Assembly (NCBI GenBank): GCA_001796935.1
Contig: MGNX01000108.1
Location: 1 to 43,816, forward strand
DNA length: 43,816 bases
Direction: 5' to 3'
From: Chloroflexi bacterium RBG_16_60_22
Lineage (GTDB): Bacteria; Chloroflexota; Dehalococcoidia; Dehalococcoidales; RBG-16-60-22
Shown: in pieces, positions 5,193-21,562 of the stretch
How the letters are laid out: each line of letters starts with the position of its first letter
How positions within the stretch are numbered: the first letter of the stretch is position 1
Notes under the pieces: generated by a model
The model's input: the letters and a program-made list of their open reading frames with translations, nothing else
What the model was told of the DNA's origin: nothing
The model's database searches: none
Translations under genes and position numbers: made by a program

Positions 5193-5195
5193 CTA

Positions 5196-8546: not shown

Positions 8547-9130
8547 AGTATGGTTTACTCATAGACTTCGACCGATGTCAGGGATGTAATGCCTGTGAGG
8601 TGGCGTGTAAGCAGGAGAATGAGCTCCCCGTGGGACCGCGGCTGAAACAAGTGTTGACGATTGGACCGGAGAACGTGGGGCAAAGGCTTATCATGGAGTA
8701 CCTGCCCGTGATGTGTATGCATTGTGAGAACCCTCCCTGTGCGGCCGTATGCCCGGTAGGGGCGATAGTTAAGGATGCACACGGCATAACACTGGTCAAC
8801 GAAAAGAAATGTCACGACACCGATAAGGATTTCTGCAAGAAAGCCTGCATCGCCGCGTGTCCTTACCCGGTTCCACCGCAGTACAACCCTGAGAAAGATA
8901 TTGTTCAAATGTGTAACATGTGCATCCAGCGTGTCGGCAGGGGCGAAGAACCCAGCTGCGTCAAGCACTGCATCAACAAGGTTATAACATTTGGCCCCAT
9001 AAAAGAGCTGTCAAAGATAATACAGGAAAGGGGCAACCGTACTATTACCGTAGGAGGCATTCTCCCGAACGTGGTTTGCCGCCCCTCGGTGGTGCACATT
9101 CCGCCCAAGAGGCCTTATACCCTGGAGTAG
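8540..9130 (+). CDS. 4Fe-4S ferredoxin-type electron-transfer subunit (DmsB/PsrB-like)
   Basis: 196-aa ORF. Cys groups are CQGCNACEVAC, CMHCENPPCAAVCP, CHDTDKDFCKKACIAACP (degenerate) and CNMCIQ...CVKHC. The ATG overlaps the upstream stop by 7 nt. SD GGAGGAAG upstream. Confidence 0.85.
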   Translation: MVKYGLLIDFDRCQGCNACEVACKQENELPVGPRLKQVLTIGPENVGQRLIMEYLPVMCMHCENPPCAAVCPVGAIVKDAHGITLVNEKKCHDTDKDFCKKACIAACPYPVPPQYNPEKDIVQMCNMCIQRVGRGEEPSCVKHCINKVITFGPIKELSKIIQERGNRTITVGGILPNVVCRPSVVHIPPKRPYTLE

Positions 9131-9136
9131 ATAAAG

Positions 9137-11704
9137 CTAGCGTCGTTTTTCCAGGAGGCGTTCCGGGCGCGGCCCGGTGGCCGGGTCGTAGGGCCGGCTG
9201 AAGGCTTCCGGGTACCGCTTCGTGAGTTCATCGAGGTCGGCGCGCGCCACCTCGACGAGGTAGCCGCTGGTGGCGATGCCGGTGGCGTTCCGGGAGGTGG
9301 TCCGGCGGGGGGATATGGTGTTGACGGCGCCGCCGCGGTCCAGCTCCCCGGGGACGATGGGGTCGTAGCTGGCGCCGTGGTCGGAGGATACCACCCCCGG
9401 CATGATGCGCTCGGTAACGTAGGCCCCGCCGAGCACCGCGCCCCGCTCGTTGTAGATTTTGACCACATCCCCGTATTTAATGCCCCTCCGGGCGGCATCG
9501 GAAGGGTGTATCCAGACAGGGTGATAGAGATACCCGTCCGGTCCCCTGACCTTGCACGTCTCGATTTCCCGGAGCCAGGTCACGTCCTGGTGCTCGGAAT
9601 GCACCCCCCACCGGGGGTGGTTGGAGACCAGCAGCAGGGGGTACTTCCCGGCCCTCTTGCCCCCCAGGTTTTCCTGGTGGGAGATACCGTGGGGTATCCA
9701 CCGGGGGTAGGGTGGCCTTTCCTCGTCGTGGGGGAAGTGCTCCGCCAGCCTTTGGGAAAACAGCTCCAGCTTGCCGGAGGGCGTGTTCAGGGGGTTCTTC
9801 CCGGGGTCGGCGTAGAAAGCCCCCATGCCCGGCGGGTCTTTCTTCCAGTCGGGGTCGGTGGGGAGAATGAAGTAACCCTTTTTCTCGAACTCCTCAAAGC
9901 TGATGTAGTCGGCGCAGCCCGAGTGCTCGAACCCGAACTTCTTGTGGTCCCGGACGGTCCTGCCGCCGGTGTACTTCTCCAGCAGCCCCAGCCGCTCGGC
10001 AATCAGGCAGACGATATCGTAGTCACTCCTGGCTTCGCCCAGCGGCTCGATGCATTTCTCCTCGTTGATAATCAGGCTGAACTGGCCGTTATTGACGTCG
10101 GTGGCGATGTCCTCTTCCTCGAACTTGGTGCTGACCGGCAGGATAACGTCGGCGAAGAGGCAGTCGTTCTCCAGCCAGATGTGCTGGGACAGGATGAACT
10201 CTATCTTGGGGCTCCTCAGGGCTTTGACATAGCTGTTGCCGTCATTCCAGCAGGTTATCCAGGAAGGGGTATCCGACCATATCATATGTATCTCGGGGAA
10301 GCCTTCGACCGGGTAGGTGTATTTCTCGAACTGCTTCTCGACCGGCTCGAAGAAGAGGTAACCGCCGTACCAGCTGATGGGCGGATTGAGGATGGCGTCG
10401 TGCACCATGTCCTTGGGGATAATCTGCTGCGGCACCAGCGCCAGGAAATCGGCATCGTGGGAGGCGGGCATGGCGGTGATGATTTTCTCCGCCTTGGGCA
10501 GGGACAGCTGCTGCCGACTCCCGAAGAAGGCCCACTCCGTCATCTTGAAGATATGCGCGCCCGGTTTCCCCAGCCCCTGCATGGCCATCAGCACGATTTC
10601 CATCCGGGCCGGCTCCGTGGCGTAAGGCCCCCGGATATATGAGCCGCCGACCCCGTGCACGATGGTGGTGGGTCTGGCCGCCCATTCCCGCGCCAGCGTC
10701 TTGATGATGCGGGACGGGACGCCGCAGAGCTTCGAGGCCCAGGCCGGCGTCTTGGGGACGCCGTCTTCCCTGCCCAGGAGGTAGTCTTTAATCTTGTCGA
10801 AACCGACGGTATGGGTGGCGAGGTAGTCGCGGTCGTAAGTGTCCTCGGTGAGCCAGGTATAGGCCACGGCCAATTGCAGGGCGACATCGGTGTTGGGCAG
10901 TATCGGAATCCACTTATCGGCGTGGATGGCGGCGGTAAAGTTGAGGTCCGGGCAGATGAAGACCGCCCTGATGCCGAGCTCTTTGAACCAGTACCGCACC
11001 CGCGTCCCCACCTGTCCCGCCCAGCCGTACTGGGTGCTTTCGGCGTCGCACCCCCAGTAGAGGAGCTGCTCCGTGTGTTCGGCGATATCGGCCACGAGGT
11101 TGGTCTGCGGGGGCAGTCCCACCGGCTCGTACCCCCAGACGTGCTTGGCCCCCCAGTTCCACCCCTCCCAGCTGTCCGGGTTCCTCGCCTGCAGCGTGTA
11201 GCCGCCCAGCAGGGTGAGGAGCTTTTTCTGCTGGCCGTGGGGGAAATGCACCATCTTGGTCTCCCCGTGTCCGTCCGCCTGGGCGAAGATGGCGTAGGGC
11301 CCGTACCTGGCGATAATCCTCTTTATCTCGCCGACGATAATATCCAGGGCTTCGTCCCAGGAGATGCGGACGTAGCGGCTCCGGCCCCGGTTCTGGACAT
11401 TCCTCTCGCCGCGGGGGTCGAAGTCCACCCTCTTCAGGGGATAAAGAATGCGGTTGGGCGAGTAGATGCGTTTCTTGTAGCTCAGGGCGAGGGGGGATAT
11501 CAGCGTCTTGAGGGTCGGCTCGAAGGTCCGGCCCCGCGCCTCTATCTTCCAGGGCTTGAACTGCTCGGGCTGATACTTCCGGTCGTAGTGCAGCGGCCGG
11601 ATGCGGATGATGCGGCCGTCCTTGATATCGATTTCGGAGGTATGCCCGTCGGAGTCGATAGAGCAAAAACCGATGCCCTTATAGAGCGTCTTTTCTTCTG
11701 CCAT
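9137..11704 (-). CDS. transhydroxylase-type Mo-bisPGD large subunit, paralogue 3 (pyrogallol-phloroglucinol transhydroxylase / resorcinol hydroxylase family)
   Basis: 855-aa ORF with no N-terminal Cys cluster and no Tat motif. Family blocks: KPWKIEARG, YPLKRVDFDP, RISWDEALDII, NPDSWEGWNWGAKHVWG, DKWIPILPNTD and DRGGAVNTISP. No SD before ATG 11704, and no alternative in-frame start back to the TGA. Confidence 0.85.
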   Translation of the reverse strand: MAEEKTLYKGIGFCSIDSDGHTSEIDIKDGRIIRIRPLHYDRKYQPEQFKPWKIEARGRTFEPTLKTLISPLALSYKKRIYSPNRILYPLKRVDFDPRGERNVQNRGRSRYVRISWDEALDIIVGEIKRIIARYGPYAIFAQADGHGETKMVHFPHGQQKKLLTLLGGYTLQARNPDSWEGWNWGAKHVWGYEPVGLPPQTNLVADIAEHTEQLLYWGCDAESTQYGWAGQVGTRVRYWFKELGIRAVFICPDLNFTAAIHADKWIPILPNTDVALQLAVAYTWLTEDTYDRDYLATHTVGFDKIKDYLLGREDGVPKTPAWASKLCGVPSRIIKTLAREWAARPTTIVHGVGGSYIRGPYATEPARMEIVLMAMQGLGKPGAHIFKMTEWAFFGSRQQLSLPKAEKIITAMPASHDADFLALVPQQIIPKDMVHDAILNPPISWYGGYLFFEPVEKQFEKYTYPVEGFPEIHMIWSDTPSWITCWNDGNSYVKALRSPKIEFILSQHIWLENDCLFADVILPVSTKFEEEDIATDVNNGQFSLIINEEKCIEPLGEARSDYDIVCLIAERLGLLEKYTGGRTVRDHKKFGFEHSGCADYISFEEFEKKGYFILPTDPDWKKDPPGMGAFYADPGKNPLNTPSGKLELFSQRLAEHFPHDEERPPYPRWIPHGISHQENLGGKRAGKYPLLLVSNHPRWGVHSEHQDVTWLREIETCKVRGPDGYLYHPVWIHPSDAARRGIKYGDVVKIYNERGAVLGGAYVTERIMPGVVSSDHGASYDPIVPGELDRGGAVNTISPRRTTSRNATGIATSGYLVEVARADLDELTKRYPEAFSRPYDPATGPRPERLLEKRR

Positions 11705-11748
11705 GGCTGTTATCTTGTTGGTTAGGTTTGCGCTTGACCGATTAAACT

Positions 11749-11834
11749 GTCATTGCGAGGAGCTCGCCTGAGGCGGGCGACGAAGCAATCTAAAAACATT
11801 CATAGAGATTGCTTTGCCTTCGGCTCGCAATGAC
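11749..11834. repeat. compound palindromic intergenic element (REP-like hairpin)
   Basis: Outer arms are GTCATTGCGAG (11749-11759) and CTCGCAATGAC (11824-11834). Inner arms are AAGCAATCT (11782-11790) and AGATTGCTT (11806-11814). Small sub-hairpins sit in the internal loops. Lies between the small-subunit gene and paralogue 3. Confidence 0.6.
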
Positions 11835-11895
11835 ATTACCAACCCAAACCAAATCATATCACCCTGGTGATGAGTTGCGGGCTGACGGTAATGCC

Positions 11896-12714
11896 CTACC
11901 TTTTTACAAGTTCGATGTCTCCCAGGTTGACGTCTTTCTCCGTGCTTATCCCCTCTAACTTCTTTGCCTTGTAGCCGGGCTTCTCAATCACCAGCGAGTA
12001 CTTGCCCACCTCCAGGCTCTCGAACCAGAAGTCGCCGAAGCGGTCGGTCCTGGCCACCAGCTTCTTCGCCTTGCCCGGCTCCGTCAGGGTGACCGTTGCC
12101 CCCTCGGTGCACTCGTCCTCCCCGGGGTCCCAGACGGCCCCGGCGATAAATCTCTTTGGTATCCCGATGTAATACACCCTTGGTTTGGCTTTAAACTCGG
12201 GGTGCAGCACCTCGGACTGCTTGATGTATTCCTTCAGCTCGGCCTCCTCGCCGAACCGCAGCGCCTCCGTCGGGCAGGCGTCGACGCACCGCGGCTCTTT
12301 CCACCCCCGGTCCAGCAGGTGCGCGCAAAAAGTGCACTTCTGTGATATATTCAGGTCGCCGTTGAAGTAAATCACCCCGTAGGGACAGGCATCGACACAG
12401 TTGCGGTTGCCCACGCACTTCTCGGGGTCGATGATAACGATTCCGTCTGCCCGCTTGTATATCGCCTGCTGGCGGCAGGCCTTCATACATGGGGCATCAT
12501 CGCAGTGCTGGCAGATGTCGTGCCAGTAGGCTACCTTGACCTTGGGCAGGGTCCCCCTCACGATATCCGTCACCTTCATCCAGAACTGGCCGGTGTCCGG
12601 CTGCGGCTTGGCGATAGGAGTCCAGTCGTTGCCCACGTGCTCGTCCTTGCAGGCTATCTGGCAGTTGTAGCAGCCGTTGCATTTGGTAATGTCGATAATT
12701 AAAGCCTTACCCAT
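11896..12714 (-). CDS. transhydroxylase-type small subunit (FeS ferredoxin domain + C-terminal beta-barrel/carboxypeptidase-regulatory-like domain)
   Basis: 272-aa ORF. Cys groups are CNGCYNCQIAC, CQHCDDAPCMKAC, CVGNRNCVDACP and CTFCAHL...CVDACP. The C-terminal ~80 aa are beta-rich (ATVTLTEPGKAKKLVARTDRFGDFWFESLEVGKYSLVIEKPGYKAKK). Starts 3 nt after the paralogue-2 stop. Confidence 0.85.
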   Translation of the reverse strand: MGKALIIDITKCNGCYNCQIACKDEHVGNDWTPIAKPQPDTGQFWMKVTDIVRGTLPKVKVAYWHDICQHCDDAPCMKACRQQAIYKRADGIVIIDPEKCVGNRNCVDACPYGVIYFNGDLNISQKCTFCAHLLDRGWKEPRCVDACPTEALRFGEEAELKEYIKQSEVLHPEFKAKPRVYYIGIPKRFIAGAVWDPGEDECTEGATVTLTEPGKAKKLVARTDRFGDFWFESLEVGKYSLVIEKPGYKAKKLEGISTEKDVNLGDIELVKR

Positions 12715-12716
12715 TT

Positions 12717-15329
12717 TTACTTCTTACCTCCGTAGAGAAATGATGCTACGCCCGGACCGGCCGCATGGTGGTATGGCCGGCTGAACGCCTCGGGGTATTT
12801 CCGCCGCATCTCGTCAAGGTTGACGCGCTCCACCTCCACCAGGAAGCCGCTGGTGGCCATGCCCGTGGCATTGGCCGAGGTCACCTTGCCCGGAGTTATG
12901 GTATTGATGGCCCCGCCGCGGTCGAGCTCCCCGGCGACGATGGGGTCATACTTGGCCCCGTGGTCGATGGAGATTACCCCGGGGATAATCCTCTCGGTCA
13001 CCATGGCGCCGGCGAGGACGCCGCCCCTCTCGTTATAGATTTTTACCACGTCGCCGTCGGCGATGCCCCGGGCGGCGGCGTCTTCGGGGTTGACCCAGAC
13101 GGTATGGTAGAGGTACCCGTCCGCGCCACGTGTCTTACAGGTCCTGATTTCCCGGAACCAGGTGATATCGTCGTGGTTGGCGTGAACGCCCCACCGGGGG
13201 TGGTTGGAGCAGACCAGGATGGGATATTTCCTGGCGCGGTCGCACAGCCGGCTTTCCTGGTGGGTCTTGCCGTAGGGAATCCACCTGGGATGGGGAGGCC
13301 GCTCCTCGTCATCCGGGAAATGCTCGGCCAGTCTCTGGGAATAGATTTCCAGCTTGCCCGTAGGTGTGCTCAGCGGGTTCTTTTTAGGGTCTTGGTAGAA
13401 CGCATTCAGGCCCCGGGGGTTTTTCTTCCATTCGGGGTGAGTGGGGATAACGTAGTACTCGTTCTCCTTGAACTTCTCCCAGCTAATCAGGTCGGCCAGG
13501 CCGGAATGGTCGAAGCCGACCTTCATCCACTCTTCGGTGGACTTGCCCTGGGTGAGCTTTTCCTTGAGGCCGAACCGCTCGGCAATCATGAGGGCTATTT
13601 CCCAGTCCCCCTTGGACTCTCCCAGTGGCTCGATGCACTGGCCTTCGTAGTTGATGGTGCGGTACTGCCCGCTGAGTCCGTCAACGCTGATATCTAGCTC
13701 CTCGAACTTGGTGCGGACCGGCAGGACGACGTCGGCGAAGAGGCAGTCGTTTTCCAGCCAGATGTGCTGGGCCATCATGAACTCAATATTGGGGCTCCTC
13801 AGGGCATCGATGAATTCGTTGCCGCCGTTCCAGCAGGTTATCCAGCAGGGGGAATCCGTCCATATCATGTGGACCTTGGAGCACCCTTCCACCGGGTACC
13901 GGTACTTGACGAACTGGTTTTCCGTCATTTCCGCCAGCAGGGTGGTGCCGTACCATTCGATGGGCGGGCCGCCCTTGAGGTCGTTGAGGATGGCCTTGGC
14001 CACCATGTCCTTGGCGATAATCTGCTTGGGGTACTTGGTGACGTCAAATCCCTTGTAGCAGGCGAAGACCTGCGGCATCACCACCGGAATGGGGACCGGC
14101 ATCTCGTACGTCCGGCCGAAGAAGCCCCACTCCATCATCTTGACCTGGTTGGCCCCGGGTTTGCCCAGGGCCTGCATGGCGAGCAGGGTCACCTCGAGCC
14201 GGGCCGGCTCGGTGGCGTAGGGGCCGCGGATATAGGAGCCCCCGTTGCCGTGCACCACGGACGTCGTCCGGGAAGCCCACTCCCGGGCCAGGGCCTTGAT
14301 GATGCGCGATGGCACGCCGCAGAGCTCCGAGGCCCATTTCGGCGTCTTGGGGACGCCGTCTTCCTTGCCCAGGACGTAGTCCTTGAATTTATCAAAGCCG
14401 ACGGTGTGCGTGGCGATATAGTCTTTATCATAGGTGTCTTCGGTAAGCCAGACATAGGCGATGGCCAGCTGCATGGCGGCGTCAGTATTGGGCAGTATCG
14501 GTATCCACTTGTCGCCGTGAATGGCCGCGGAGAAATTGAGGTCCGGGCAGATAAATATTTGCTTTATCCCGAGTTCGGTAAACCAGTAAATAAAGCGGCT
14601 GGCCGATTGCCCCGCCCAGCCCCAGGGCGTGACCTCGGCATCACATCCCCAGTGCAGGAGGACATCCGTGTGCTCGGCGACGTCCAGCATGAGGTTGCCC
14701 TGCGGCGCCATGCCGACCGGCTCGCAGCCCCAGACGTGCTTGGCACCCCAGTACCACCCTTCCCAGCTATCGGGATTCCGGGCCTGCTGGGTGTAACCGC
14801 CCAGGAGGTCGAGCAGCTCGCGGTGGGCGCCGTGACCCCCGTTGACGATTTTGGTTTCGCCGTGGCCGTCCGACTGTGAAAATATGGCGTAGGGGCCGTA
14901 CTTTTTAATGATTCTCTTCATCTCGCCGACAATGATGTCGAGGGCCTCGTCCCAGGAAATCCGGACATAACCGCTCTTGCCGCGGTTCTGGATGTTCCTC
15001 TCGCCGTTGGGGTCGAAATCCACCCTCTTCAACGGGTACAGCAGACGGTTAGATGAATAGACGCGCTTTTTATATCCCAGGGCCAGGGGTGGCGGCAGTG
15101 TCTTGAGAGGCGGTTCGTAAACCTTACCACGGGCTTCCAGCTTCCATGGCTTGAACTCCTCGGCCTTGTATTTGCGGGTATAGCGGAAAGGTTTTATCCG
15201 GATAATTTTACCGTCTTTGACATCTACTTCGGTGAGGTTTCCGTCAATACCGTTACCGCAAAAGCCAAGCCCCTTGATATAGGTCCTTTCCTGTCCGTTG
15301 TCTTTGCCGGTTTTTTTCTTTTCAGCCAT
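12717..15329 (-). CDS. transhydroxylase-type Mo-bisPGD large subunit, paralogue 2
   Basis: 870-aa ORF with the same blocks as paralogue 3 (KPWKLEARG, YPLKRVDFDP, RISWDEALDII, NPDSWEGWYWGAKHVWG, DRGGAINTITP). SD GGAGGAGG lies 4 nt upstream of ATG 15329. Confidence 0.85.
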   Translation of the reverse strand: MAEKKKTGKDNGQERTYIKGLGFCGNGIDGNLTEVDVKDGKIIRIKPFRYTRKYKAEEFKPWKLEARGKVYEPPLKTLPPPLALGYKKRVYSSNRLLYPLKRVDFDPNGERNIQNRGKSGYVRISWDEALDIIVGEMKRIIKKYGPYAIFSQSDGHGETKIVNGGHGAHRELLDLLGGYTQQARNPDSWEGWYWGAKHVWGCEPVGMAPQGNLMLDVAEHTDVLLHWGCDAEVTPWGWAGQSASRFIYWFTELGIKQIFICPDLNFSAAIHGDKWIPILPNTDAAMQLAIAYVWLTEDTYDKDYIATHTVGFDKFKDYVLGKEDGVPKTPKWASELCGVPSRIIKALAREWASRTTSVVHGNGGSYIRGPYATEPARLEVTLLAMQALGKPGANQVKMMEWGFFGRTYEMPVPIPVVMPQVFACYKGFDVTKYPKQIIAKDMVAKAILNDLKGGPPIEWYGTTLLAEMTENQFVKYRYPVEGCSKVHMIWTDSPCWITCWNGGNEFIDALRSPNIEFMMAQHIWLENDCLFADVVLPVRTKFEELDISVDGLSGQYRTINYEGQCIEPLGESKGDWEIALMIAERFGLKEKLTQGKSTEEWMKVGFDHSGLADLISWEKFKENEYYVIPTHPEWKKNPRGLNAFYQDPKKNPLSTPTGKLEIYSQRLAEHFPDDEERPPHPRWIPYGKTHQESRLCDRARKYPILVCSNHPRWGVHANHDDITWFREIRTCKTRGADGYLYHTVWVNPEDAAARGIADGDVVKIYNERGGVLAGAMVTERIIPGVISIDHGAKYDPIVAGELDRGGAINTITPGKVTSANATGMATSGFLVEVERVNLDEMRRKYPEAFSRPYHHAAGPGVASFLYGGKK

Positions 15330-15447
15330 TTGCCTCCTCCGTATCTATTTCAGGATTATCGAACGTAAGCATGGCGAAAATGTGTCCGCGCCCCGGTACT
15401 CTGCTTTATCGGCCACCTCCTTAAAAAAATGCCGGAGAATCAGCCCA

Positions 15448-15476
15448 ATATTACTGAAATGACACCGGTATGTCAA
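15448..15476 (-). promoter_or_regulatory. candidate internal sigma70-type promoter for paralogue 2 / small subunit / paralogue 3
   Basis: Minus strand reads TTGACA (15476-15471), a 17-nt spacer, then TAATAT (15453-15448). Located in the 163-nt gap after paralogue 1. Confidence 0.5.
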
Positions 15477-15492
15477 TCCTTAAAATCGCCGG

Positions 15493-18207
15493 CTAAATTT
15501 TCTCCCCCCGGTGAAGGACTCTCTCCCGGGTCAGGCCGGCACCCGGGTCATAAGGCCGGTTAAAAGCTTGATGATACTTCCGCTTCAGCTCGTCAAGATT
15601 GGCTCGCTCCACCGCCACCAGGAACCCGGCGCAGACCATGCCCGTGGCATTCTTGGAGATGGTCTTGCGCGGCGTGATGGTGTTAATCGCCCCGCCCCGG
15701 TCGAGCTCCCCGGGGACGATGGGGTCGTACCGCGCCCCGTGGTCGATGGAGACCACCCCCGGCATGATTCTCTCGGTCACGTAGGCACCGGCGAGGACCG
15801 CCCCCCGCTCGTTGTATATCTTTACCACGTCTCCCCGCTGGATACCCCGCGCCGCCGCGTCCTGCTGGTTCATCCAGAGGGGCTCATAAAGATAGCCGTC
15901 CTGGCCCTTGACCTTGCAGGTCTCGATTTCCCTTATCCAGGTGATGTCATCGAGGTTGGCATGTACCCGCCACCGGCCGTGATTGGAAACCACCAGCAGG
16001 GGGTATTTTTTGGCCCGGGGGTGCAGCCGGCTTTCCTGGTGGGTCTCCCCGTAAGGAATCCAGTGCGGGACCGGCGGCCTCTCCTTATCGCCGGGGAAGT
16101 GCCTGGCCAGGTTCTGGGAATAGAACTCAACCTTGCCGGACGGCGTCTTCAGGGGGTGTCCCTCCGGGTCTTCGTAAAAGTCCTGCAGGGGCGTCCGCCG
16201 CTTGACGTACTGCCTCGCTTCCGGCAGGGTGGGGGAAATGTAATATCCCTTTTCCCTCCATTCTTTATAGGTTATAAACTCTTCAGCGCCGGAGTTATCG
16301 AAGGCGTATTTAATCCATTGCTCCTCCGTCTTGCCCCCAGTCACCTTGTCCCGCAGTCCCAGCCGGTCGGCTATGAGGCAGACTATCTCGTAGTCGCTCT
16401 TTGACTCGCCGACGGGTTCGATGCACTTACCTTCGTGGAAAATAACGTCGAACTGCTCGGACATGGCATCCACCTGAATATCTTCTTCTTCGAACTTGGT
16501 GCTGACCGGCAGGATTACGTCCGCGAACTGGCAATCGTTCTCCAGCCACGGCTGCTGGGCCAGGATGAACTCTATCTTGGGGCTCCTGATGGCCTTGATG
16601 AAGTAGTTGCTGTCATTCCAGCAGGTTATCCAGCAGGGGGTATCCGTCCATATCATGTGTACTTCCGAGCAGCCCCTGGCGGGGTAGGTATATTTGACGA
16701 ACTGGTCTTCCAGCGGTTCGCTCCAGAAGGTGGTGCCGTACCAGCTGACGGGCGGGTTGAGAATGGCCTCGTGGATGAGGTCTTTGGCGATAATCTGGGA
16801 CGGCCTTTGCGCGGGCGGGGTCACCAGCCCGAATTCCGGCTTATGGAGCGGCGGCGGCGTCCAGCCGGCCGGGTCCCACCGCTTGATAAAATCGTTGCGG
16901 GATATGCCGTGAATCTCCGCCGCCTGAAAGGGGACCTCCGTGCCGCGGTAAGCGACCTGCGGCGAAAACATCGCCTGCGATTTAAAAGGCTCGGCGAGGA
17001 ATATCTGGTTGAAACAGAACTGGTGCACCCCCGGTTTCCCCAGCCCCTGCATGGCCAGCAGCAGGACCTCCAGCCGGGCGGGCTCGGTGGAATAAGGCCC
17101 CCGGATGGCACCACCTCCCAGGTAGTGCGATATCGATGTCCGCCGGGAAGCCCACTCTCTGGCCAGGGCCTTGATTATCCTGGAGGGCACGCCGCAAAGC
17201 TCGGCGGCCCACCCGGGCGTCTTGGCAATACCATCCTCTTTACCGAGGACGTAGTCCGCGAACTTATCGAACCCGTAGGTGTGCGTGGCCACGTAGTCTT
17301 TATCATAGGTACCTTCGGTAATCCAGACGTAAGCGATGGCCAGACGCATGGCCGCGTCCGTGTTGGGCAAAATCGGTATCCACTTGTCGGCGTGCACCGC
17401 GGCGCCGTAGTTCAGGTCCGGGCAGATGAAGATGCCCTTTATCCCCAGCTCCCCGAGCCAGTAGCATACCCGACTCTGCGCCTGGCCGTGAAACGCCCAT
17501 GACGTAGTCTCGGGGTCGCAGCCCCAGTACAGGATAAGCTCGCAGTTTTCGGCGATATCCGGGACCATGTTGGTCTGGGACTCGATGCCCACCGGGTCCA
17601 TGCCCCAGGCGTGCTTGGCCCCCCAGTAAAACCCCTCCCAGCTATCCGGGTTCCGGGTCTGGAGGGTATAGCCGCCCATGTGCTTGAGAAGCAGGGCGGG
17701 ACAGGCATGGGACGGGTGCACCACACCCGTTTCCCCGTGGCCGTCCCCCTGTAACAGCACGGCCGATGGCCCGTATTTCTTCTGGACCCTCTTCAGCTCG
17801 CTGGTGATGATGTCCAGGGCCTCGTCCCAGGATATCCTGACGTACTTGCTTTCCCCCCGCTTCTCCGGATTTCTCTGGCCGCCGGGGTCCCAGTCGACCC
17901 TTTTCAGCGGGTGGAGCACCCGGTTGCGTGAGTAAACTCGCTTTTTATAACCCAGGCTGTGCGGCGAAGGTAACGACTGCAGGCGGGGCCGGAAGACCTT
18001 GCCGCGGGCGTGAATCTCCCAGATGCCGAACTCCTCGGAGCGGTATTTCCAGTCGTAGTGGAACGGCCTCAGCCTGACGATTTTTCCATCCCGGACGTCC
18101 ACGGCCACGGTGGAGCCGCCGGTACCGGTCTCCCCGATGAGACCCATGGCCTTGATAAAGGTTTTTTCTGCCCCGTTTTTCTTCCCTGTTCCGCGTTTAT
18201 CGGCCAT
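15493..18207 (-). CDS. transhydroxylase-type Mo-bisPGD large subunit, paralogue 1 (carries an extra ~33-aa segment)
   Basis: The track ORF is 931 aa, trimmed here to Met28 (MADKRGTGKKNG). That start aligns with the MAEKKKTGKDNG start of paralogue 2 and has SD GGGAGG 5 nt upstream. The longer ATG (18288) lies upstream of the predicted -10. Result is 904 aa with the same family blocks. Confidence 0.85.
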   Translation of the reverse strand: MADKRGTGKKNGAEKTFIKAMGLIGETGTGGSTVAVDVRDGKIVRLRPFHYDWKYRSEEFGIWEIHARGKVFRPRLQSLPSPHSLGYKKRVYSRNRVLHPLKRVDWDPGGQRNPEKRGESKYVRISWDEALDIITSELKRVQKKYGPSAVLLQGDGHGETGVVHPSHACPALLLKHMGGYTLQTRNPDSWEGFYWGAKHAWGMDPVGIESQTNMVPDIAENCELILYWGCDPETTSWAFHGQAQSRVCYWLGELGIKGIFICPDLNYGAAVHADKWIPILPNTDAAMRLAIAYVWITEGTYDKDYVATHTYGFDKFADYVLGKEDGIAKTPGWAAELCGVPSRIIKALAREWASRRTSISHYLGGGAIRGPYSTEPARLEVLLLAMQGLGKPGVHQFCFNQIFLAEPFKSQAMFSPQVAYRGTEVPFQAAEIHGISRNDFIKRWDPAGWTPPPLHKPEFGLVTPPAQRPSQIIAKDLIHEAILNPPVSWYGTTFWSEPLEDQFVKYTYPARGCSEVHMIWTDTPCWITCWNDSNYFIKAIRSPKIEFILAQQPWLENDCQFADVILPVSTKFEEEDIQVDAMSEQFDVIFHEGKCIEPVGESKSDYEIVCLIADRLGLRDKVTGGKTEEQWIKYAFDNSGAEEFITYKEWREKGYYISPTLPEARQYVKRRTPLQDFYEDPEGHPLKTPSGKVEFYSQNLARHFPGDKERPPVPHWIPYGETHQESRLHPRAKKYPLLVVSNHGRWRVHANLDDITWIREIETCKVKGQDGYLYEPLWMNQQDAAARGIQRGDVVKIYNERGAVLAGAYVTERIMPGVVSIDHGARYDPIVPGELDRGGAINTITPRKTISKNATGMVCAGFLVAVERANLDELKRKYHQAFNRPYDPGAGLTRERVLHRGEKI

Positions 18208-18277
18208 GTTGCCTCCCAATGGTGAACTTATAGCCAGACTCGGGGCCCGGGACAATTGAAAAAACCGATTGCGGCAT

Positions 18278-18307
18278 AGTATATTCATATTTCAGGCGGC
18301 AAGTCAA
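18278..18307 (-). promoter_or_regulatory. candidate sigma70-type promoter for paralogue 1
   Basis: Minus strand reads TTGACT (18307-18302), an 18-nt spacer, then TATACT (18283-18278). Confidence 0.5.
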
Positions 18308-18340
18308 CCCGAATTGAACTTAACCCTGATAATTGCATTG

Positions 18341-18369
18341 TTGACAAAAAGGTATTGCCCATCTATAAT
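18341..18369 (+). promoter_or_regulatory. consensus sigma70-type promoter for the TRAP operon
   Basis: TTGACA (18341-18346), a 17-nt spacer, then TATAAT (18364-18369). Both hexamers are perfect. Predicted leader is about 120 nt. Confidence 0.65.
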
Positions 18370-18494
18370 CTCCATGACCCTGTACAATCTGGATAAACGC
18401 AGGATTCATCTAAGGGAGGTGTGACATGTAATCGAATCTTGACGGTTTTTTCCACATCCGTCGAAAACCAAAGTCTGGGAAGGAGACCATGTAA

Positions 18495-19685
18495 ATGAGA
18501 AAAATTTTACTTCTGTTGGTTATTGTTATTCTGACCAGCGCCGTTATCTTTGGTTGTACTCAACAAGCCCCGGCCCCGGCACCAGCTCCGGCCCCGGCTC
18601 CAGCCCCGGCCCCGGCACCAGCTCCGGCCCCAGCCCCGGCCCCGGCGCCAGCCCCGGCGCCAAAACCGGCTCCGGCTCCGGCGATGAAACCGATGAAACT
18701 CCAGTTCAACAATGGTCAGTTTGGTCCTGCAGACGTCCCCAGCCAGACGTTCAGGTGGTTTACCGATATGGTCACCGAACGGACCAACGGCTTACTGACG
18801 TTTTCACACATCTATTCCTTCGCGCTGACCAAGGCAGGAGAGGAGATAGCCGCCCTCCAGGCCGGGTTAGTTGACGTGGGAAATACCTGTGTGGTATATC
18901 ACCCCACCACGCTGTACATTAACTCCGGTTTCCCCCGCGCCGTGCCCTTCGCTATCAGTGACGTGCGCCCCGCCGCCGAGGTGATGTACAAGATGTACTA
19001 CGAAGGTGAGACAGCCAAAATCCTGGCCGGCGAGTACGCCAAGCAGGGCCTGACCTTCCTGTTCGTCACCGTCGATGACAGTTATGTCCTGGAATCGAAG
19101 ACGCCCATTACCACGCTGATGGACCTCAAAGGTAAAAAGGTAGCCTGTCTCGGTTCCCAGGCCGGGTGGCTCGCCGCCGCTGGCGCGGCGCCGGTGGGGA
19201 TGCCCGTCGGGCCCCGGCCGACCGCACTGCAGACCGGTGTTGTCGAGGTATCCGCGACGCCCTTCGAGATAAGCTACCCGTTCAAGCTCTATGAATTTGC
19301 CCCCCACATGATTCAGACGGGGTGGGGCGCCGTCACCGGTAACCCGATTTCCTGGAACACGGAGAAATTTAACCAGTTGCCCGCGGACGTTCAGAAGATT
19401 CTCATGGATACCGGCAAGGAAGCCTTCAAGAAGAACGTCGACTTCACGGAGAAGTGGTACGAGACTTCGCTATCCCTCGCCAAAGCGGCCGGACAGATTG
19501 TCCATCCCGCGTTCTCCGCGGCGGACCAGGCCGCCTGGTCGGCCCTCCTCGGCGAGCCGGTGGTGGACTGGGTGAAAGCCGCCGAGTCCAAGGGCATCCA
19601 GGGGTCGGATAAAGTGGTGGCGAGGTATATTGAGCTAACCGCGGCAACCGGACACAAGTTCCCCAAGCAGTGGGCGGTTAAATAG
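18495..19685 (+). CDS. TRAP transporter solute receptor (DctP-type), lipoprotein with Ala-Pro tether
   Basis: 396-aa ORF with lipoprotein signal LTSAVIFGC, an (AP)16 linker and DctP-like blocks (DLKGKKVA, ALQTGVVE). SD GGAAGGAG lies 8 nt upstream. Followed by the small and large permease genes. Confidence 0.85.
   Translation: MRKILLLLVIVILTSAVIFGCTQQAPAPAPAPAPAPAPAPAPAPAPAPAPAPAPAPKPAPAPAMKPMKLQFNNGQFGPADVPSQTFRWFTDMVTERTNGLLTFSHIYSFALTKAGEEIAALQAGLVDVGNTCVVYHPTTLYINSGFPRAVPFAISDVRPAAEVMYKMYYEGETAKILAGEYAKQGLTFLFVTVDDSYVLESKTPITTLMDLKGKKVACLGSQAGWLAAAGAAPVGMPVGPRPTALQTGVVEVSATPFEISYPFKLYEFAPHMIQTGWGAVTGNPISWNTEKFNQLPADVQKILMDTGKEAFKKNVDFTEKWYETSLSLAKAAGQIVHPAFSAADQAAWSALLGEPVVDWVKAAESKGIQGSDKVVARYIELTAATGHKFPKQWAVK
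18567..18683. repeat. hexanucleotide (GCN CCN)n coding repeat with a 36-bp tandem duplication
   Basis: Sixteen consecutive Ala-Pro codon pairs (18567-18662), then KPAPAPA. Units 1-6 and 7-12 are identical for their first 29 nt (GCCCCGGCCCCGGCACCAGCTCCGGCCCC). Confidence 0.9.
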
Positions 19686-19721
19686 CCCGCGGCGACCTAC
19701 TGAAACCAGAGCTTAAAAGTA

Positions 19722-20252
19722 ATGCAGTCTCCGAAAGGGATTAACCGGGTAGCCGATATAAGCTTATATATCAACAGGTGGCTGGCGGTAGTGAGCGGCA
19801 TCATCATCATGGTACTGTGCCTCTACACCACCGGCGATGTCATCGGGCGTTATGTCTTTAACAAGCCGTTATGGGCTGCCTATGAGCTGTCCTTAATCTT
19901 CTTGATATATATCACCTTTTGGGGAATTGCCTACGTTCAGTCCCGCGGGGGCCATATGCGGCTGGGGTTCCTCTGGGCGCAGTTCGGCCCCCGCGGTAAG
20001 GCTACTCTCGACCTGCTTACCGTGCTCATCGGGCTTTTCCTCTTCGCTATCATTACCTGGCAGGGCTGGTCCTGGGCCATCGAGTCCTGGACGATAAAAG
20101 AGAGCACCATGGGCGCCTGGACCGTCCCGCTGTTCCCCGCCAGAATCGGGCTCGCCATCGGTTCGGTTACACTTCTTTTACAATACGTCATTGACCTCTT
20201 CCGGCACGTCAGTCAGCTCTTTACTGGCCGTCAGGTTGGTGTGGAACCATGA
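19722..20252 (+). CDS. dctQ: TRAP transporter small permease (DctQ-type)
   Basis: 176-aa hydrophobic ORF with the DctQ-like block GDVIGRYVFNKPLWAAYELS...GGHMRLGFL. Located between the receptor and the large permease. Weak SD. Confidence 0.75.
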   Translation: MQSPKGINRVADISLYINRWLAVVSGIIIMVLCLYTTGDVIGRYVFNKPLWAAYELSLIFLIYITFWGIAYVQSRGGHMRLGFLWAQFGPRGKATLDLLTVLIGLFLFAIITWQGWSWAIESWTIKESTMGAWTVPLFPARIGLAIGSVTLLLQYVIDLFRHVSQLFTGRQVGVEP

Positions 20253-21562
20253 GCCCCGAGATTATTGCCGTCGGTTTCTTTGCCCTGGCGATTGTCCTGC
20301 TCGTCCTGGGGGTGCACATCGGCCTGGCCCTGGCGCTGGCCGGTGCCATCGGCTCGTTCGCCATCATCGGCAACTTCAGCACGGTCTTCGGTTTGCTGAA
20401 ATCCACCCCGTATTATTCCATCTCGATATACGAGCTTTCCGTGGTCCCCCTGTTTATCCTTATGGGGATGTTCAGCCTTTACGGCGGCATCAGCGAATCG
20501 GCTTACCGGGCCATCAACAGCTGGGTGGGGAGGTTCCGGGGAGGCCTGGGCATCGCCACCGTGTGGGCGTGTACCGCCTTCGGGGCTACCTCCGGCTCCT
20601 CGGTGGCCGCCTCCTCCGTTTTCACCAAGGTGAGCTACCCGGAGATGAAGAAAGAGGGGTACGACCCCAATTTTGCCTGCGCCAGTATCGCGGTGTCGGC
20701 CGGTATCGCCATGCTCATTCCTCCGAGCCTGTACGCGGTAATATACGGTATGCTGGCCCAGGCGTCTATCGCCAAGATGCTCATGGCCGGGGTGTTGCCC
20801 GGTATTCTCCAGGCAGCCACCCTTTCCCTGGGTATTTTCATCATGGCGTTGAGGAACCCCGGACTGGCCCCGCGGTCACTCACCGTTTACAACTGGAAGG
20901 AACGGGTAGTCTCCAGCCTGAATGCCTGGCCGATGCTCGTGCTGGCGGCTATCATCATCGGCGGTATCTATTCCGGCGTGTTCACACCGACCGAAGCGGC
21001 GGCCGTGGGCGCCTTCGCCGCCCTGGTGATATGCATCGCCCGCCGGAAACTCAATGGAGGTCAGCTGAAAGACTCGCTGATAGATACGGCCTTCACCACG
21101 GCCATGCTGAACCTGGTCATCATCGGGGCTACCGTCTTCTCCCGCCTGCTGACCGTCAGCGGCCTGCCCATATGGCTGGGGGGAATCGTCGTCAACTCGG
21201 GGCTGTCACCTACCATGGTGGTCATTGCAATCCTGGTCATCTTCATCGTGCTGGGCTGCTTTATCGACGCCATGTCCATCATGTTCATCACCGTCCCCAT
21301 CTTTGCCCCGATTATCGCCGCGGCCGGTGTTGACCTTATCTGGTTCGGGGTGCTGACTACGGTGGCGCTCAACATGGGTACCATCACCCCGCCCTTCGGC
21401 CTGTGCGTCTATACAGTAAAAGCCGTGGCCGGCGCGGAGGTTACGGTGGAGGGTGTCTTCAGGGCAGCCCTCCCGATGTACTTCCCGGTGCTGGTAACCC
21501 TGGCCCTGTTAATCGCCGTACCCATCATTGTCACCATACTGCCCAACACCATGCTGGGCTAG
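20249..21562 (+). CDS. dctM: TRAP transporter large permease (DctM-type)
   Basis: 437-aa polytopic ORF with DctM blocks PLFILMGMF, GGLGIATVWACTAFGATSGSS and MLIPPS. ATGA overlap with dctQ. Confidence 0.9.
   Translation: MSPEIIAVGFFALAIVLLVLGVHIGLALALAGAIGSFAIIGNFSTVFGLLKSTPYYSISIYELSVVPLFILMGMFSLYGGISESAYRAINSWVGRFRGGLGIATVWACTAFGATSGSSVAASSVFTKVSYPEMKKEGYDPNFACASIAVSAGIAMLIPPSLYAVIYGMLAQASIAKMLMAGVLPGILQAATLSLGIFIMALRNPGLAPRSLTVYNWKERVVSSLNAWPMLVLAAIIIGGIYSGVFTPTEAAAVGAFAALVICIARRKLNGGQLKDSLIDTAFTTAMLNLVIIGATVFSRLLTVSGLPIWLGGIVVNSGLSPTMVVIAILVIFIVLGCFIDAMSIMFITVPIFAPIIAAAGVDLIWFGVLTTVALNMGTITPPFGLCVYTVKAVAGAEVTVEGVFRAALPMYFPVLVTLALLIAVPIIVTILPNTMLG

What the first reader, a model, noticed from the sequence alone, without database searches (positions are those of the whole stretch)
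9137..18207. Three tandem transhydroxylase-type Mo-enzyme large subunits served by a single small subunit
Seen in the sequence:
- 15493-18207 (904 aa), 12717-15329 (870 aa) and 9137-11704 (855 aa) are co-directional paralogues, roughly two-thirds identical by eye.
- Shared blocks are KPWK[IL]EARG, YPLKRVD[FW]DP, RISWDEALDII, NPDSWEGW.WGAKH.WG, DKWIPILPNTD, GVPSRIIK.LAREWA and DRGGA[IV]NTI[ST]P.
- None has the N-terminal CX2CX3C FeS motif or a twin-arginine signal.
- Only one partner gene is present (11896-12714, 272 aa). It has four Cys groups of a DmsB-type ferredoxin plus a beta-rich C-terminal module of about 80 aa.

Established knowledge: a cytoplasmic alpha subunit (~870 aa, no FeS) with a beta subunit (~270 aa, FeS + beta-barrel) is the hallmark of pyrogallol-phloroglucinol transhydroxylase of Pelobacter acidigallici. 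The related resorcinol and 3,5-dihydroxybenzoate hydroxylases of Azoarcus anaerobius and Thauera aromatica AR-1 share it.

Inference: a 3:1 alpha:beta layout suggests either interchangeable catalytic subunits with different polyphenol specificities docking on one electron-transfer subunit, or consecutive hydroxyl-shuffling steps. I do not know of a characterised system with this arrangement.
Basis: partly seen in the sequence, partly recalled or inferred. Interest (0 to 1): 0.75.

Follow-up and report, generated by a model that had tools for sequence, protein, structure and literature searches.

The report
Three Mo-enzyme paralogues, one FeS partner
A Chloroflexi contig carries three intact paralogues of the catalytic subunit of the pyrogallol-transhydroxylase/resorcinol-hydroxylase enzyme family next to one iron-sulfur subunit; this layout is common in the phylum, and the enzymes belong to an uncharacterised branch that is probably not a true transhydroxylase.

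Summary
Four co-directional minus-strand genes encode three AthL-like molybdopterin subunits (61-68% identical to each other) and one BthL-like FeS subunit. [quoted passage not shown] The window is a contig of Chloroflexi bacterium RBG_16_60_22. The same four-gene order recurs in independent assemblies, and all four genes are under purifying selection (dN/dS 0.06-0.09), so this is not an artefact.

- The alphas are 39-40% identical to AthL. They lack Arg153 and Tyr404, which are near-invariant in 120 true AthL-clade clusters.
- The beta keeps a fourth, NarH-FS4-like three-Cys cluster site that BthL lacks. This hints at net electron transfer (hydroxylase or dehydroxylase) rather than redox-neutral transhydroxylation.
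- No gallate decarboxylase or phloroglucinol-pathway genes lie in the window.
- The 3:1 layout is not unusual. In 80 related genome loci, 25 of 37 Chloroflexota alphas have no adjacent beta, and arrays such as A-A-B-A-A occur. YnfEFGH is a 2:1 precedent in the same superfamily.

The paralogues differ most in the loop aligned to AthL's Tyr404, which fits different substrates. Whether beta serves all three is untested. Interest is moderate to low.

The parts
15493..18207 (-). alpha3: AthL-like Mo-bisMGD catalytic subunit, 904 aa. It carries a 30-40 aa insertion in the variable loop.
   Evidence: The orthologue in L082 is 904 aa and 92.8% identical, with dN/dS 0.063.
12717..15329 (-). alpha2: AthL-like catalytic subunit, 870 aa. 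It is the canonical partner of beta, with only 2 nt between its stop codon and the beta start.
   Evidence: 4v4c_A E 1.3e-145. dN/dS is 0.065. In the NJ tree it is sister to L002, which is also followed by a beta of the same type.
11896..12714 (-). beta: BthL-like FeS subunit, 272 aa, made of a DmsB-type polyferredoxin plus a C-terminal seven-stranded domain.
   Evidence: (4v4c_B E 5e-55). dN/dS is 0.087.
9137..11704 (-). alpha1: AthL-like catalytic subunit, 855 aa, identical to database protein P0045 ('dehydrogenase', Chloroflexi bacterium RBG_16_60_22).
   Evidence: dN/dS is 0.088. It is sister to alpha2+L002.
14766..14768 (-). Codon of Ser188 in alpha2, the predicted Mo ligand (equivalent to AthL Ser175) in the NPDSWEG motif. 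The equivalent codons are 11171-11173 (alpha1 Ser178) and 17641-17643 (alpha3 Ser189).
   Evidence: His/Asp/Ser/Trp are invariant in 103 of 103 and 120 of 120 relatives.
14004..14165 (-). Hypervariable loop of alpha2 (aa 389-442). The equivalents are 10406-10570 in alpha1 and 16777-17040 in alpha3. It aligns to AthL 380-451, which holds Tyr404. Three-way identity here is 0-20%.
12382..12477 (-). Beta residues 80-111: Cys80 (fourth Cys of group II) plus C100-x2-N-x2-C106-x3-C110-P. This is a three-Cys site of the NarH FS4 ([3Fe-4S]) type and is absent from BthL.
   Evidence: 118 of 121 closest homologues show C-x2-X-x2-C with a variable X.
11899..12147 (-). Beta C-terminal domain (aa 190-272), CarboxypepD_reg/transthyretin-like, seven strands.
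   Evidence: PF13620 E 5.8e-12; pLDDT 83-96; 5aq0 TM 0.73-0.79; 4v4c_B is the top hit.
15448..15476 (-). Promoter-like TTGACA-17-TAATAT inside the 163-nt alpha3-alpha2 spacer, which is almost unchanged in L082.
   Evidence: This is a consensus match only, and its function is inferred.
18278..18307 (-). Promoter-like TTGACT-18-TATACT upstream of alpha3.
   Evidence: consensus match only.
11748..11835 (.). 88-nt nested palindrome inserted in the beta-alpha1 spacer. The spacer is 191 nt here and 42 nt in L082.
18495..21562 (+). Divergent TRAP transporter (DctP, DctQ, DctM). Its position is conserved in L082 and L083, so it is a possible importer of an anionic substrate.
   Evidence: Only 4 of 18 related Chloroflexota loci have a DctM nearby, so the link is weak.

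Best explanation
The cluster encodes a soluble, cytoplasmic Mo-bisMGD enzyme system. It belongs to an uncharacterised, very large subfamily of the AthL/RhL clade (pyrogallol transhydroxylase / resorcinol hydroxylase).

Shown:
- All three alphas keep the catalytic core: the Ser Mo-ligand with the neighbouring Asp and Trp, and the His.
- All three are under purifying selection.
- They differ most in the loop that carries a catalytic or substrate residue in AthL.
- Alpha2 and beta are arranged as the canonical translationally coupled A-B unit.
- Beta carries Cys ligands for four clusters, the fourth in a three-Cys arrangement.

Inferred:
- Alpha2-beta forms the heterodimer.
- Alpha1 lies directly downstream of beta and is probably co-transcribed. 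It most likely docks on the same beta as an alternative catalytic subunit. Alpha3 has its own promoter-like site and less certainly does the same. This would parallel YnfE/YnfF with YnfG.
- Each alpha acts on a different phenolic or hydroxy-aromatic substrate.
- Because beta keeps a complete four-cluster wire, the chemistry is more likely a net two-electron hydroxylation with water, or a reductive dehydroxylation coupled to a soluble redox partner. Redox-neutral pyrogallol-to-phloroglucinol transhydroxylation is less likely.
For: - Family: PF21423 + PF00384 + PF01568 in all three alphas, and Fer4_11 + CarboxypepD_reg in beta. Best solved relatives are 4v4c_A (E 1e-145) and 4v4c_B (E 5e-55). 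The fold search of the beta model ranks 4v4c_B first.
- Catalytic core: His144, Asp174, Ser175 and Trp176 (AthL numbering) are invariant.
- Function maintained: dN/dS is 0.06-0.09 against the L082 orthologues, with identical synteny in independent assemblies.
- Divergent pockets: three-way identity is 0-20% over the segment aligned to AthL 380-451, against 60-80% elsewhere.
- Canonical A-B coupling: 2-nt spacing here, and A followed by B in 50 of 89 alphas scored.
- Pairing is labile among close relatives. Alpha2 and L002 are paired, while sister alpha1, L003 and L004_9992 are not. Tight A-A-B and A-A-B-A-A arrays also occur. This fits sharing better than repeated loss of beta dependence.
- Four-cluster beta: all 15 Cys are conserved in 120 of 121 closest homologues, and 118 of 121 have a variable residue at the second position of group III. 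This matches the [3Fe-4S] FS4 signature of NarH (established knowledge).
- BthL and the Coriobacteriia betas lack these three Cys.
Against: - No experiment or complex model links alpha1 or alpha3 to beta.
- In related Chloroflexota loci, 25 of 37 alphas have no adjacent beta, and 21 of the 39 beta-less alphas across all loci have none within 10 kb.
- Alpha3's nearest relatives (L032, L018_14590) are beta-less, and L032 lies on a different contig from the alpha2-beta orthologue of the same MAG.
- The nearest outgroup enzymes (BisC, TorA, DorA) work without a beta (and established knowledge).
- The [3Fe-4S] assignment rests on sequence analogy only.
- I could not check whether the known hydroxylases RhS and DbhS keep this site.
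- No redox partner or substrate-pathway genes could be assigned in the window.
Confidence: 0.5

Rival explanations
1. Only alpha2 pairs with beta. Alpha1 and alpha3, like the many beta-less relatives, work as stand-alone Mo enzymes. They would catalyse redox-neutral hydroxyl transfer, or take electrons directly from a small soluble carrier as BisC, TorA and DorA do.
For: - 39 of 89 alphas lack an adjacent beta, and 21 of those have none within 10 kb.
- Several subclades in the tree are entirely beta-less, including alpha3's closest relatives.
- The top NCBIfam similarity of the alphas is to the monomeric bisC/torA families.
- Alpha3 has its own promoter-like site.
Against: - Alpha1 is a 68%-identical sister of the paired alpha2 and sits 42-191 nt downstream of beta in the same orientation.
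- All alphas keep the AhtL-like first domain. This domain occupies the place of the FS0 domain, which faces beta in related enzymes (for the domain; its position is established knowledge).
- Pairing status flips between close relatives.
- MAGs represented by several loci (JBBIPA01, CAVZKR01, JAUWGD01) do carry at least one beta elsewhere.
Confidence: 0.3
2. One reading: three isoenzymes of genuine pyrogallol-phloroglucinol-type transhydroxylase on one beta, shuffling hydroxyl groups among polyphenols with a tetrahydroxybenzene co-substrate.
For: AthL and BthL are the closest solved structures, and the domain architecture is identical. The catalytic His/Asp/Ser core is conserved. Chloroflexi homologues have been annotated this way in the literature (PMC3971608; PMC4959651).
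Against: - Identity to AthL is 39-40%.
- Arg153 is replaced (P, G or S) and Tyr404 is deleted. Both are conserved in at least 117 of 120 clusters of the true AthL clade.
- Beta keeps the fourth cluster site that BthL lost.
- The window has no UbiD-type gallate decarboxylase, and no cyclase-family or BKACE-family phloroglucinol-pathway genes. The true AthL locus L086 has UbiD/LpdD next door (pathway from PMC10470551).
Confidence: 0.12
3. Redundant or decaying duplicates, or an assembly artefact, with only one functional alpha.
For: None beyond the fact that they are paralogues.
Against: - The copies are 61-68% identical, so they are not collapsed or duplicated reads.
- All are full length with an intact catalytic core.
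- dN/dS is 0.06-0.09 for each.
- The same order appears in three or more independent assemblies.
Confidence: 0.02

Closest known systems
Pyrogallol-phloroglucinol transhydroxylase AthL/BthL of Pelobacter acidigallici (PDB 4v4c)
   Same: - Cytoplasmic alpha of about 870 aa with the AhtL-like first domain, no FS0 cluster and no Tat signal.
- A Ser Mo-ligand in the NPDSWEGW context, with His144 and Asp174.
- A beta of about 272 aa made of a polyferredoxin plus a C-terminal seven-stranded domain.
- Alpha followed directly by beta.
   Different: - Only 39-40% (alpha) and 42% (beta) identity.
- Arg153 and Tyr404 are missing, and the Trp354 and Tyr560 positions are changed or uncertain.
- Beta keeps Cys80, Cys100 and Cys106 for a fourth cluster, which BthL lacks.
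- Three alphas per beta here, against 1:1 in the AthL locus.
- No gallate decarboxylase genes nearby.
Resorcinol hydroxylase RhLS (Azoarcus/Aromatoleum anaerobium) and 3,5-dihydroxybenzoate hydroxylase DbhLS (Thauera aromatica AR-1)
   Same: They belong to the same RhL/PgtL clade of Ser-coordinated MopB enzymes (PMC10100899). They are net-redox hydroxylases using water, which is the type of chemistry suggested here by the four-cluster beta (inference). An adjacent TRAP transporter would suit an anionic substrate such as a hydroxybenzoate (inference).
   Different: Their sequences could not be retrieved, so neither identity nor the beta cluster count was compared. They were not among the 80 best genome loci, all of which are at least 51% identical to alpha2. 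No hydroxyhydroquinone-pathway genes were recognised in the window (pathway from memory).
YnfEFGH selenate/DMSO reductase of Salmonella and E. coli
   Same: Two paralogous catalytic subunits (71% identical) are encoded in tandem ahead of a single FeS subunit, YnfG (PMC5203670). This is the nearest characterised precedent for several alphas per beta in this superfamily.
   Different: It is periplasmic and Tat-exported, its alphas carry FS0, and it has a membrane anchor (YnfH) and a chaperone (DmsD). It belongs to a different clade (DmsA). None of these features is present here.
AthLS-like genes reported in sediment Chloroflexi (RBG-2, RBG-1351, DEH-C11)
   Same: They come from the same phylum and, for the RBG genomes, the same aquifer. 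Multiple copies per genome were already noted: 'two operons' and 'three copies' (PMC3971608; PMC4959651).
   Different: Those reports annotated them as pyrogallol transhydroxylases. They did not examine active-site residues, beta cluster content or the alpha:beta imbalance.

Membership tests
AthL/BthL-type Mo-bisMGD enzymes (RhL/PgtL clade; Pfam PF21423-containing) | Alpha has the AhtL-like first domain plus the Molybdopterin and Molydop_binding domains. | tested here: met
   All three alphas hit PF21423 (E 4e-12 to 6e-9, above the gathering score), PF00384 and PF01568.
AthL/BthL-type Mo-bisMGD enzymes (RhL/PgtL clade; Pfam PF21423-containing) | Alpha has no FS0 [4Fe-4S] Cys motif and no twin-arginine signal, so it is cytoplasmic. 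| tested here: met
   None hits PF04879, whereas the neighbouring Ahy-like enzyme does. The N-termini hold 0-1 Cys and no RR motif.
AthL/BthL-type Mo-bisMGD enzymes (RhL/PgtL clade; Pfam PF21423-containing) | Ser Mo-ligand with flanking Asp and Trp, and the conserved His (AthL His144, Asp174, Ser175, Trp176). | tested here: met
   These residues are invariant in the three alphas, in 103 of 103 locus alphas and in 120 of 120 AthL-clade clusters. The only exception among alpha2's 120 homologues is Asp174 at 118 of 120.
AthL/BthL-type Mo-bisMGD enzymes (RhL/PgtL clade; Pfam PF21423-containing) | Beta is a DmsB-type polyferredoxin with an extra C-terminal beta-barrel domain, encoded directly after alpha. 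| tested here: met
   Fer4_11 + CarboxypepD_reg. The alignment to 4v4c_B covers residues 5-268. The AF2 C-terminal domain has pLDDT 83-96 and seven strands. 4v4c_B is the top fold hit. The spacer is 2 nt.
Pyrogallol-phloroglucinol transhydroxylase sensu stricto (AthL orthologues) | Substrate or catalytic residues Arg153 and Tyr404 (also Trp354 and Tyr560). | tested here: not met
   In 120 clusters at least 61% identical to AthL, the counts are R153 117, Y404 120, W354 107 and Y560 118. In the window alphas, position 153 is P, G or S. Tyr404 is deleted in alpha1 and alpha2, and in all 120 alpha2 homologues; alpha3 aligns a gap or a Lys there depending on the alignment. The roles of these residues are recalled from Messerschmidt et al. 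2004. Their identities were verified against the 4v4c_A sequence.
Pyrogallol-phloroglucinol transhydroxylase sensu stricto (AthL orthologues) | Orthologue-level sequence similarity to AthL. | tested here: not met
   Identity is 39-40%, while at least 120 database clusters lie at 61-96%.
Pyrogallol-phloroglucinol transhydroxylase sensu stricto (AthL orthologues) | Beta has three [4Fe-4S] clusters only, with the fourth site lost. | tested here: not met
   The window beta keeps Cys80, Cys100 and Cys106, whereas BthL has G, A and L at those columns.
Pyrogallol-phloroglucinol transhydroxylase sensu stricto (AthL orthologues) | Genomic context of gallate decarboxylation and/or phloroglucinol degradation. 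| tested here: not met
   The true AthL locus L086 has UbiD + LpdD + flavoprotein genes within 10 kb. The 43.8-kb window has no UbiD, cyclase-family or BKACE gene. A generic SDR and a 3-hydroxyacyl-CoA dehydrogenase are present but uninformative.
Pyrogallol-phloroglucinol transhydroxylase sensu stricto (AthL orthologues) | Transhydroxylase activity with 1,2,3,5-tetrahydroxybenzene as co-substrate. | not testable with these tools
   This needs an enzyme assay.
Resorcinol / 3,5-dihydroxybenzoate hydroxylases (RhLS, DbhLS) | Close sequence relationship to RhL/RhS or DbhL/DbhS. | not tested
   The sequences were not retrievable. The AthL-seeded search returned only unnamed AthL-clade clusters, the papers were not held, and no Aromatoleum or Thauera locus was among the best 80.
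Resorcinol / 3,5-dihydroxybenzoate hydroxylases (RhLS, DbhLS) | Net electron transfer to an external acceptor through a complete FeS chain. | tested here: inconclusive
   Ligands for a fourth cluster are present and conserved, which is compatible with this feature. The cluster type, the acceptor and the state of RhS and DbhS are unknown.
Multi-alpha / single-beta operons of the DMSO reductase superfamily (YnfEFGH type) | Two or more paralogous catalytic genes co-oriented with one FeS-subunit gene. | tested here: met
   The order is A3-A2-B-A1 with spacers of 163, 2 and 191 nt. Similar arrays occur in L004, L012, L013, L017 and L044. The precedent is PMC5203670.
Multi-alpha / single-beta operons of the DMSO reductase superfamily (YnfEFGH type) | Tat export, a membrane anchor subunit and a dedicated chaperone. 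| tested here: not met
   There is no Tat motif, and no NrfD/DmsC-like or DmsD/TorD-like gene in the window.

The most novel reading that the evidence does not exclude
A very large, uncharacterised branch of the AthL/RhL family would work as a modular system. The branch has more than 7,000 database clusters, mainly in Chloroflexota, environmental Actinomycetota and Thermodesulfobacteriota. One conserved beta subunit, carrying three [4Fe-4S] clusters plus a [3Fe-4S]-type cluster, would serve as a common electron hub for several interchangeable alphas with different substrate loops. Together they would carry out anaerobic hydroxylation or dehydroxylation of diverse phenolics. These would then be redox enzymes distinct from transhydroxylase, and a major unrecognised route of anoxic polyphenol turnover in sediments.
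Probability: 0.3. Interest if true: 0.6.

Novelty: new variant of a known kind. Interest (0 to 1): 0.35.

Why it matters
AthL-like genes are routinely annotated as 'pyrogallol transhydroxylase' in sediment Chloroflexi and used to infer polyphenol fermentation. This analysis shows that the window's enzymes, and most of their thousands of relatives, lack the residues conserved in genuine AthL orthologues. Their FeS subunit also has a different cluster complement. Those annotations are therefore probably over-specific.

If the alphas do share one beta and act on different phenolics, the cluster would be a compact model for how anaerobes diversify oxygen-independent hydroxylation or dehydroxylation of aromatics. 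That bears on carbon preservation in anoxic sediments. The gene layout itself is common in the phylum and has a precedent, so it is not a surprise on its own.

Tried and rejected
- Rfam scan of 8900-18700 for a Moco or other riboswitch in the conserved spacers found nothing credible.
- Retrieval of RhL/RhS and DbhL/DbhS failed. The AthL-seeded protein search returned only unnamed AthL-clade clusters. Messerschmidt 2004 and Darley 2007 are not held. Literature searches gave no sequence-level information on RhS clusters.
- A search for conserved neighbours across 55 loci of at least 12 kb found no recurrent context, so no pathway could be inferred. Counts were DctM 4, DctP 1, UbiD 3, hydantoinase 3 and LivK 3.
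- NCBIfam has no model that any of the four proteins passes. The best hits (bisC_fam, DmsB, ArrB) are far below their cut-offs.
- The second ferredoxin (8540-9130) was considered as an extra partner for alpha1 and rejected. It overlaps the Ahy-like gene by 7 nt on the opposite strand to alpha1 and lacks the barrel domain.
- The assembly-artefact and pseudogene readings were rejected.
- An alpha-beta complex prediction was not attempted. The structure tool takes single chains, and fused constructs are not admissible.
- The AF2 model of beta is poor over the ferredoxin part (pLDDT 25-60), so global TM-scores are low. Only the C-terminal domain and the ranking were used.
- The locus sample consists of the 80 best matches to alpha2. 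The beta-less fractions therefore describe this sample, not whole genomes.

Full report
**Observation.**
- The region holds four co-directional minus-strand ORFs:
  - alpha3, 15493-18207, 904 aa
  - alpha2, 12717-15329, 870 aa
  - beta, 11896-12714, 272 aa
  - alpha1, 9137-11704, 855 aa
- The three large proteins are 61.2-67.6% identical pairwise.
- Each hits Pfam AhtL-like_1st (PF21423), Molybdopterin and Molydop_binding. None hits the FS0 domain PF04879, which the neighbouring 719-aa Mo enzyme does hit.
- Beta is Fer4_11 plus a CarboxypepD_reg domain.
- A second ferredoxin lies at 8540-9130 on the + strand. It overlaps the 3' end of an acetylene-hydratase-like gene (6387-8546; PDB 2e7z_A E 1e-109) by 7 nt and has no C-terminal domain. 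It is that enzyme's partner, not a second BthL-type subunit.

**Origin and reality.**
- Alpha1 is identical to a database protein named 'dehydrogenase [Chloroflexi bacterium RBG_16_60_22]', whose longest contig is 43,816 bp, the window length.
- A roughly 93%-identical relative was assembled independently (L082 from ENA, L083 from JGI, L084 from Logan). L082 has the same layout: TRAP transporter | A3-A2-B-A1 | ferredoxin + Ahy-like gene. L083 and L084 show the parts of it that their shorter contigs reach.
- Between the window and L082, dN/dS is 0.063, 0.065, 0.087 and 0.088 for A3, A2, B and A1.
- The copies are therefore real, distinct and all maintained by selection.

**Family.**
- The best solved relatives are pyrogallol hydroxytransferase large subunit (4v4c_A, E 1.3e-145, aligned over residues 29-839) and small subunit (4v4c_B, E 5e-55, residues 5-268). 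Both are far ahead of DMSO/TMAO reductases, NarG, EbdA or PsrA.
- An AF2 model of beta is weak in the cluster-binding part. Its C-terminal 83 residues are confident (pLDDT 83-96) and form seven strands. Foldseek ranks 4v4c_B first and matches the C-terminal domain to transthyretin-like carboxypeptidase regulatory domains.
This is the AthL/RhL clade.

**Not an AthL orthologue.**
- I rebuilt the AthL sequence from the PDB alignment. The residues I recalled from the crystal-structure paper (His144, Arg153, Asp174, Ser175, Trp176, Trp354, Tyr404, Tyr560) have exactly those identities at those positions.
- His144, Asp174, Ser175 (the Mo ligand) and Trp176 are invariant in the window alphas and in every relative examined.
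- A search seeded with AthL returned 120 clusters that are 61-96% identical to it. In these, Arg153 (117/120), Trp354 (107/120), Tyr404 (120/120) and Tyr560 (118/120) are conserved.
- The window alphas are only 39-40% identical to AthL. They have Pro, Gly or Ser at position 153, and the Tyr404 position is deleted in all 120 homologues of alpha2.
- A genuine AthL locus (L086, 96% identical to AthL) is 1 alpha: 1 beta. It lies within 10 kb of UbiD/LpdD/flavoprotein genes of the gallate-decarboxylase type.
- The window has no UbiD, no cyclase-family and no BKACE-family gene of the phloroglucinol pathway (pathway from PMC10470551).

**The beta subunit differs from BthL.**
- The window beta has 15 cluster-ligand Cys in four groups. 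These include the fourth Cys of group II (Cys80) and group III as C100-x2-N-x2-C106-x3-C110-P. BthL has Gly, Ala and Leu at the columns of Cys80, Cys100 and Cys106.
- All 15 Cys are conserved in 120 of its 121 closest homologues (at least 69% identical). In 118 of 121 the second position of group III is a variable non-Cys residue (S, H, A, N, T, Q, M and others).
- From established knowledge of NarH and of DmsB Cys102 variants, this is the signature of the distal FS4 [3Fe-4S] cluster. Here it is an inference.
- Across 56 betas from related loci, two types appear:
  - BthL-like three-cluster betas, mostly in Coriobacteriia and Firmicutes.
  - Four-site betas, in Chloroflexota, environmental Actinomycetota and Desulfobacterota.
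- A complete wire to the protein surface suggests net electron exchange with a partner. That points to hydroxylase or dehydroxylase chemistry rather than redox-neutral transhydroxylation.
- I could not test whether the known hydroxylases RhS and DbhS share the site.

**Is 3:1 unusual?** No.
- A scan of one genome per species found at least 593 relatives, and the best 80 loci were fetched.
- The canonical unit is alpha followed within a few nucleotides by beta. Of 89 alphas with enough downstream DNA, 39 lack an adjacent beta.
- By group, that is 25 of 37 in Chloroflexota, 8 of 15 in environmental Actinomycetota and 2 of 23 in Coriobacteriia. Twenty-one have no beta within 10 kb.
- Arrays include A-A-B-A-A plus a sixth opposed alpha (L004, Dehalococcoidales), A-B-A-A-B-B-A (L012), B-A-A-A-B-A-B (L017) and tight A-A-B operons (L013, L044).
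- The literature already noted two AthLS operons in Rifle Chloroflexi and three copies in a Dehalococcoidia single cell.
- YnfEFGH is a characterised 2-alpha:1-beta operon in the same superfamily.

**Do the three alphas share beta?**
- In an NJ tree, alpha2 is sister to L002, which is paired with a beta of the same type. Alpha1 is sister to that pair.
- Alpha3 groups with beta-less L032 and L018_14590. L032 comes from the same MAG as L002 but lies on another contig.
- Pairing status flips repeatedly among close relatives. This fits sharing of beta better than repeated gain and loss of beta dependence. Entirely beta-less subclades keep the stand-alone alternative alive.
- Alpha2 and beta are 2 nt apart.
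- Alpha1 follows beta by 42 nt in L082. In the window the gap is 191 nt, because an 88-nt palindrome is inserted.
- The alpha3-alpha2 spacer (163 nt) is almost unchanged between the two assemblies, although dS is 0.5-0.6 in the flanking genes. It holds a TTGACA-17-TAATAT match, and there is no Rfam hit. A3 and A2-B-A1 may therefore be separate transcripts.

**Different specificities?**
- Three-way identity is 60-80% over most of the length.
- It falls to 0-20% over alpha2 residues 389-442. Alpha3 carries a 30-40 residue insertion there. This is the segment aligned to AthL 380-451, which contains Tyr404.
- This supports divergent substrate pockets but does not identify substrates.
- The divergent TRAP transporter is conserved in L082 and L083 and hints at an anionic substrate. 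TRAP genes accompany only 4 of 18 related Chloroflexota loci.

**Verdict.**
- The finding is real and the family call is right.
- The functional label 'transhydroxylase' is not supported.
- The layout is a common feature of an abundant, uncharacterised subfamily rather than a singular arrangement.
- My best reading (confidence about 0.5) is a modular, cytoplasmic Mo enzyme system. Alpha2-beta is the core, alpha1 probably and alpha3 possibly use the same four-cluster beta, and each alpha acts on a different phenolic substrate by net-redox hydroxylation or dehydroxylation.

Noticed in passing
window 6387-9130 (+): An acetylene-hydratase-like Mo/W enzyme (719 aa, with the FS0 domain; PDB 2e7z_A E 1e-109) is translationally coupled to a 196-aa DmsB-like ferredoxin. 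The pair is convergent on alpha1, and the synteny is kept in L082. According to the literature, this is the clade closest to the gut catechol dehydroxylases. GC is about 0.53 here against about 0.60 around it.
   Followed up: partly
window 11748-11835: An 88-nt nested palindrome (12-nt perfect outer arms TGTCATTGCGAG / CTCGCAATGACA) is inserted in the beta-alpha1 spacer. It is absent from the orthologous 42-nt spacer of L082 and is single-copy in the window. The arm motif also occurs in Dehalococcoidales loci L006, L016 and L020. It may be a small mobile or REP-like element.
   Followed up: partly
window 15330-15492: The 163-nt alpha3-alpha2 spacer is nearly identical in L082, although synonymous divergence of the flanking genes is 0.5-0.6. 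It contains a strong -35/-10-like match and has no Rfam hit. It may be a conserved regulatory region.
   Followed up: partly
window 28969-32388 (+), with 32366-33001 (+): A 1139-aa fusion joins an indolepyruvate:ferredoxin oxidoreductase alpha part (TIGR03336, above cut-off) to a GltD-like NAD(P)-binding flavoprotein and a C-terminal ferredoxin domain. It is followed by a POR gamma-like subunit. This is an unusual single-chain link between a 2-oxoacid oxidoreductase and a pyridine-nucleotide module.
   Followed up: no
window 33010-38666 (-): There are two tandem MmgE/PrpD paralogues and two tandem FAD_oxidored (PF12831) paralogues. The window also has three DctP-type solute-binding proteins (18495, 39020, 40353) and a Liv-type ABC system. 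It looks like a paralogue-rich catabolic island of unknown substrate.
   Followed up: no
window 407-4466 (-): A hydantoinase B/A pair has its best NCBIfam similarity to caprolactamase CapB/CapA and acetophenone carboxylase subunits, below their cut-offs. It sits next to a 3-hydroxyacyl-CoA dehydrogenase (5196-6149). The position is conserved in L082.
   Followed up: no
L082 19020-19262 (-): An 80-aa stand-alone ORF consists only of an AhtL-like first domain and lies just upstream of the Ahy-like gene in the relative. The window has no counterpart ORF at 6150-6387.
   Followed up: partly
L012 (Dehalococcoidaceae MAG) 2340-14944: One array, A-B-A-A-B-B-A, mixes both beta types: two four-site betas and one BthL-like three-cluster beta. 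The two electron-transfer designs can therefore coexist in one locus.
   Followed up: partly
L058, L066, L068, L073 (Ellagibacter, Gordonibacter, Eggerthellaceae): In gut Coriobacteriia the AthL-like A-B pair, with a three-cluster beta, is directly followed by one or two other molybdopterin enzymes of a different clade (23-25% identical). This suggests combined polyphenol-modifying clusters in urolithin-producing genera.
   Followed up: no
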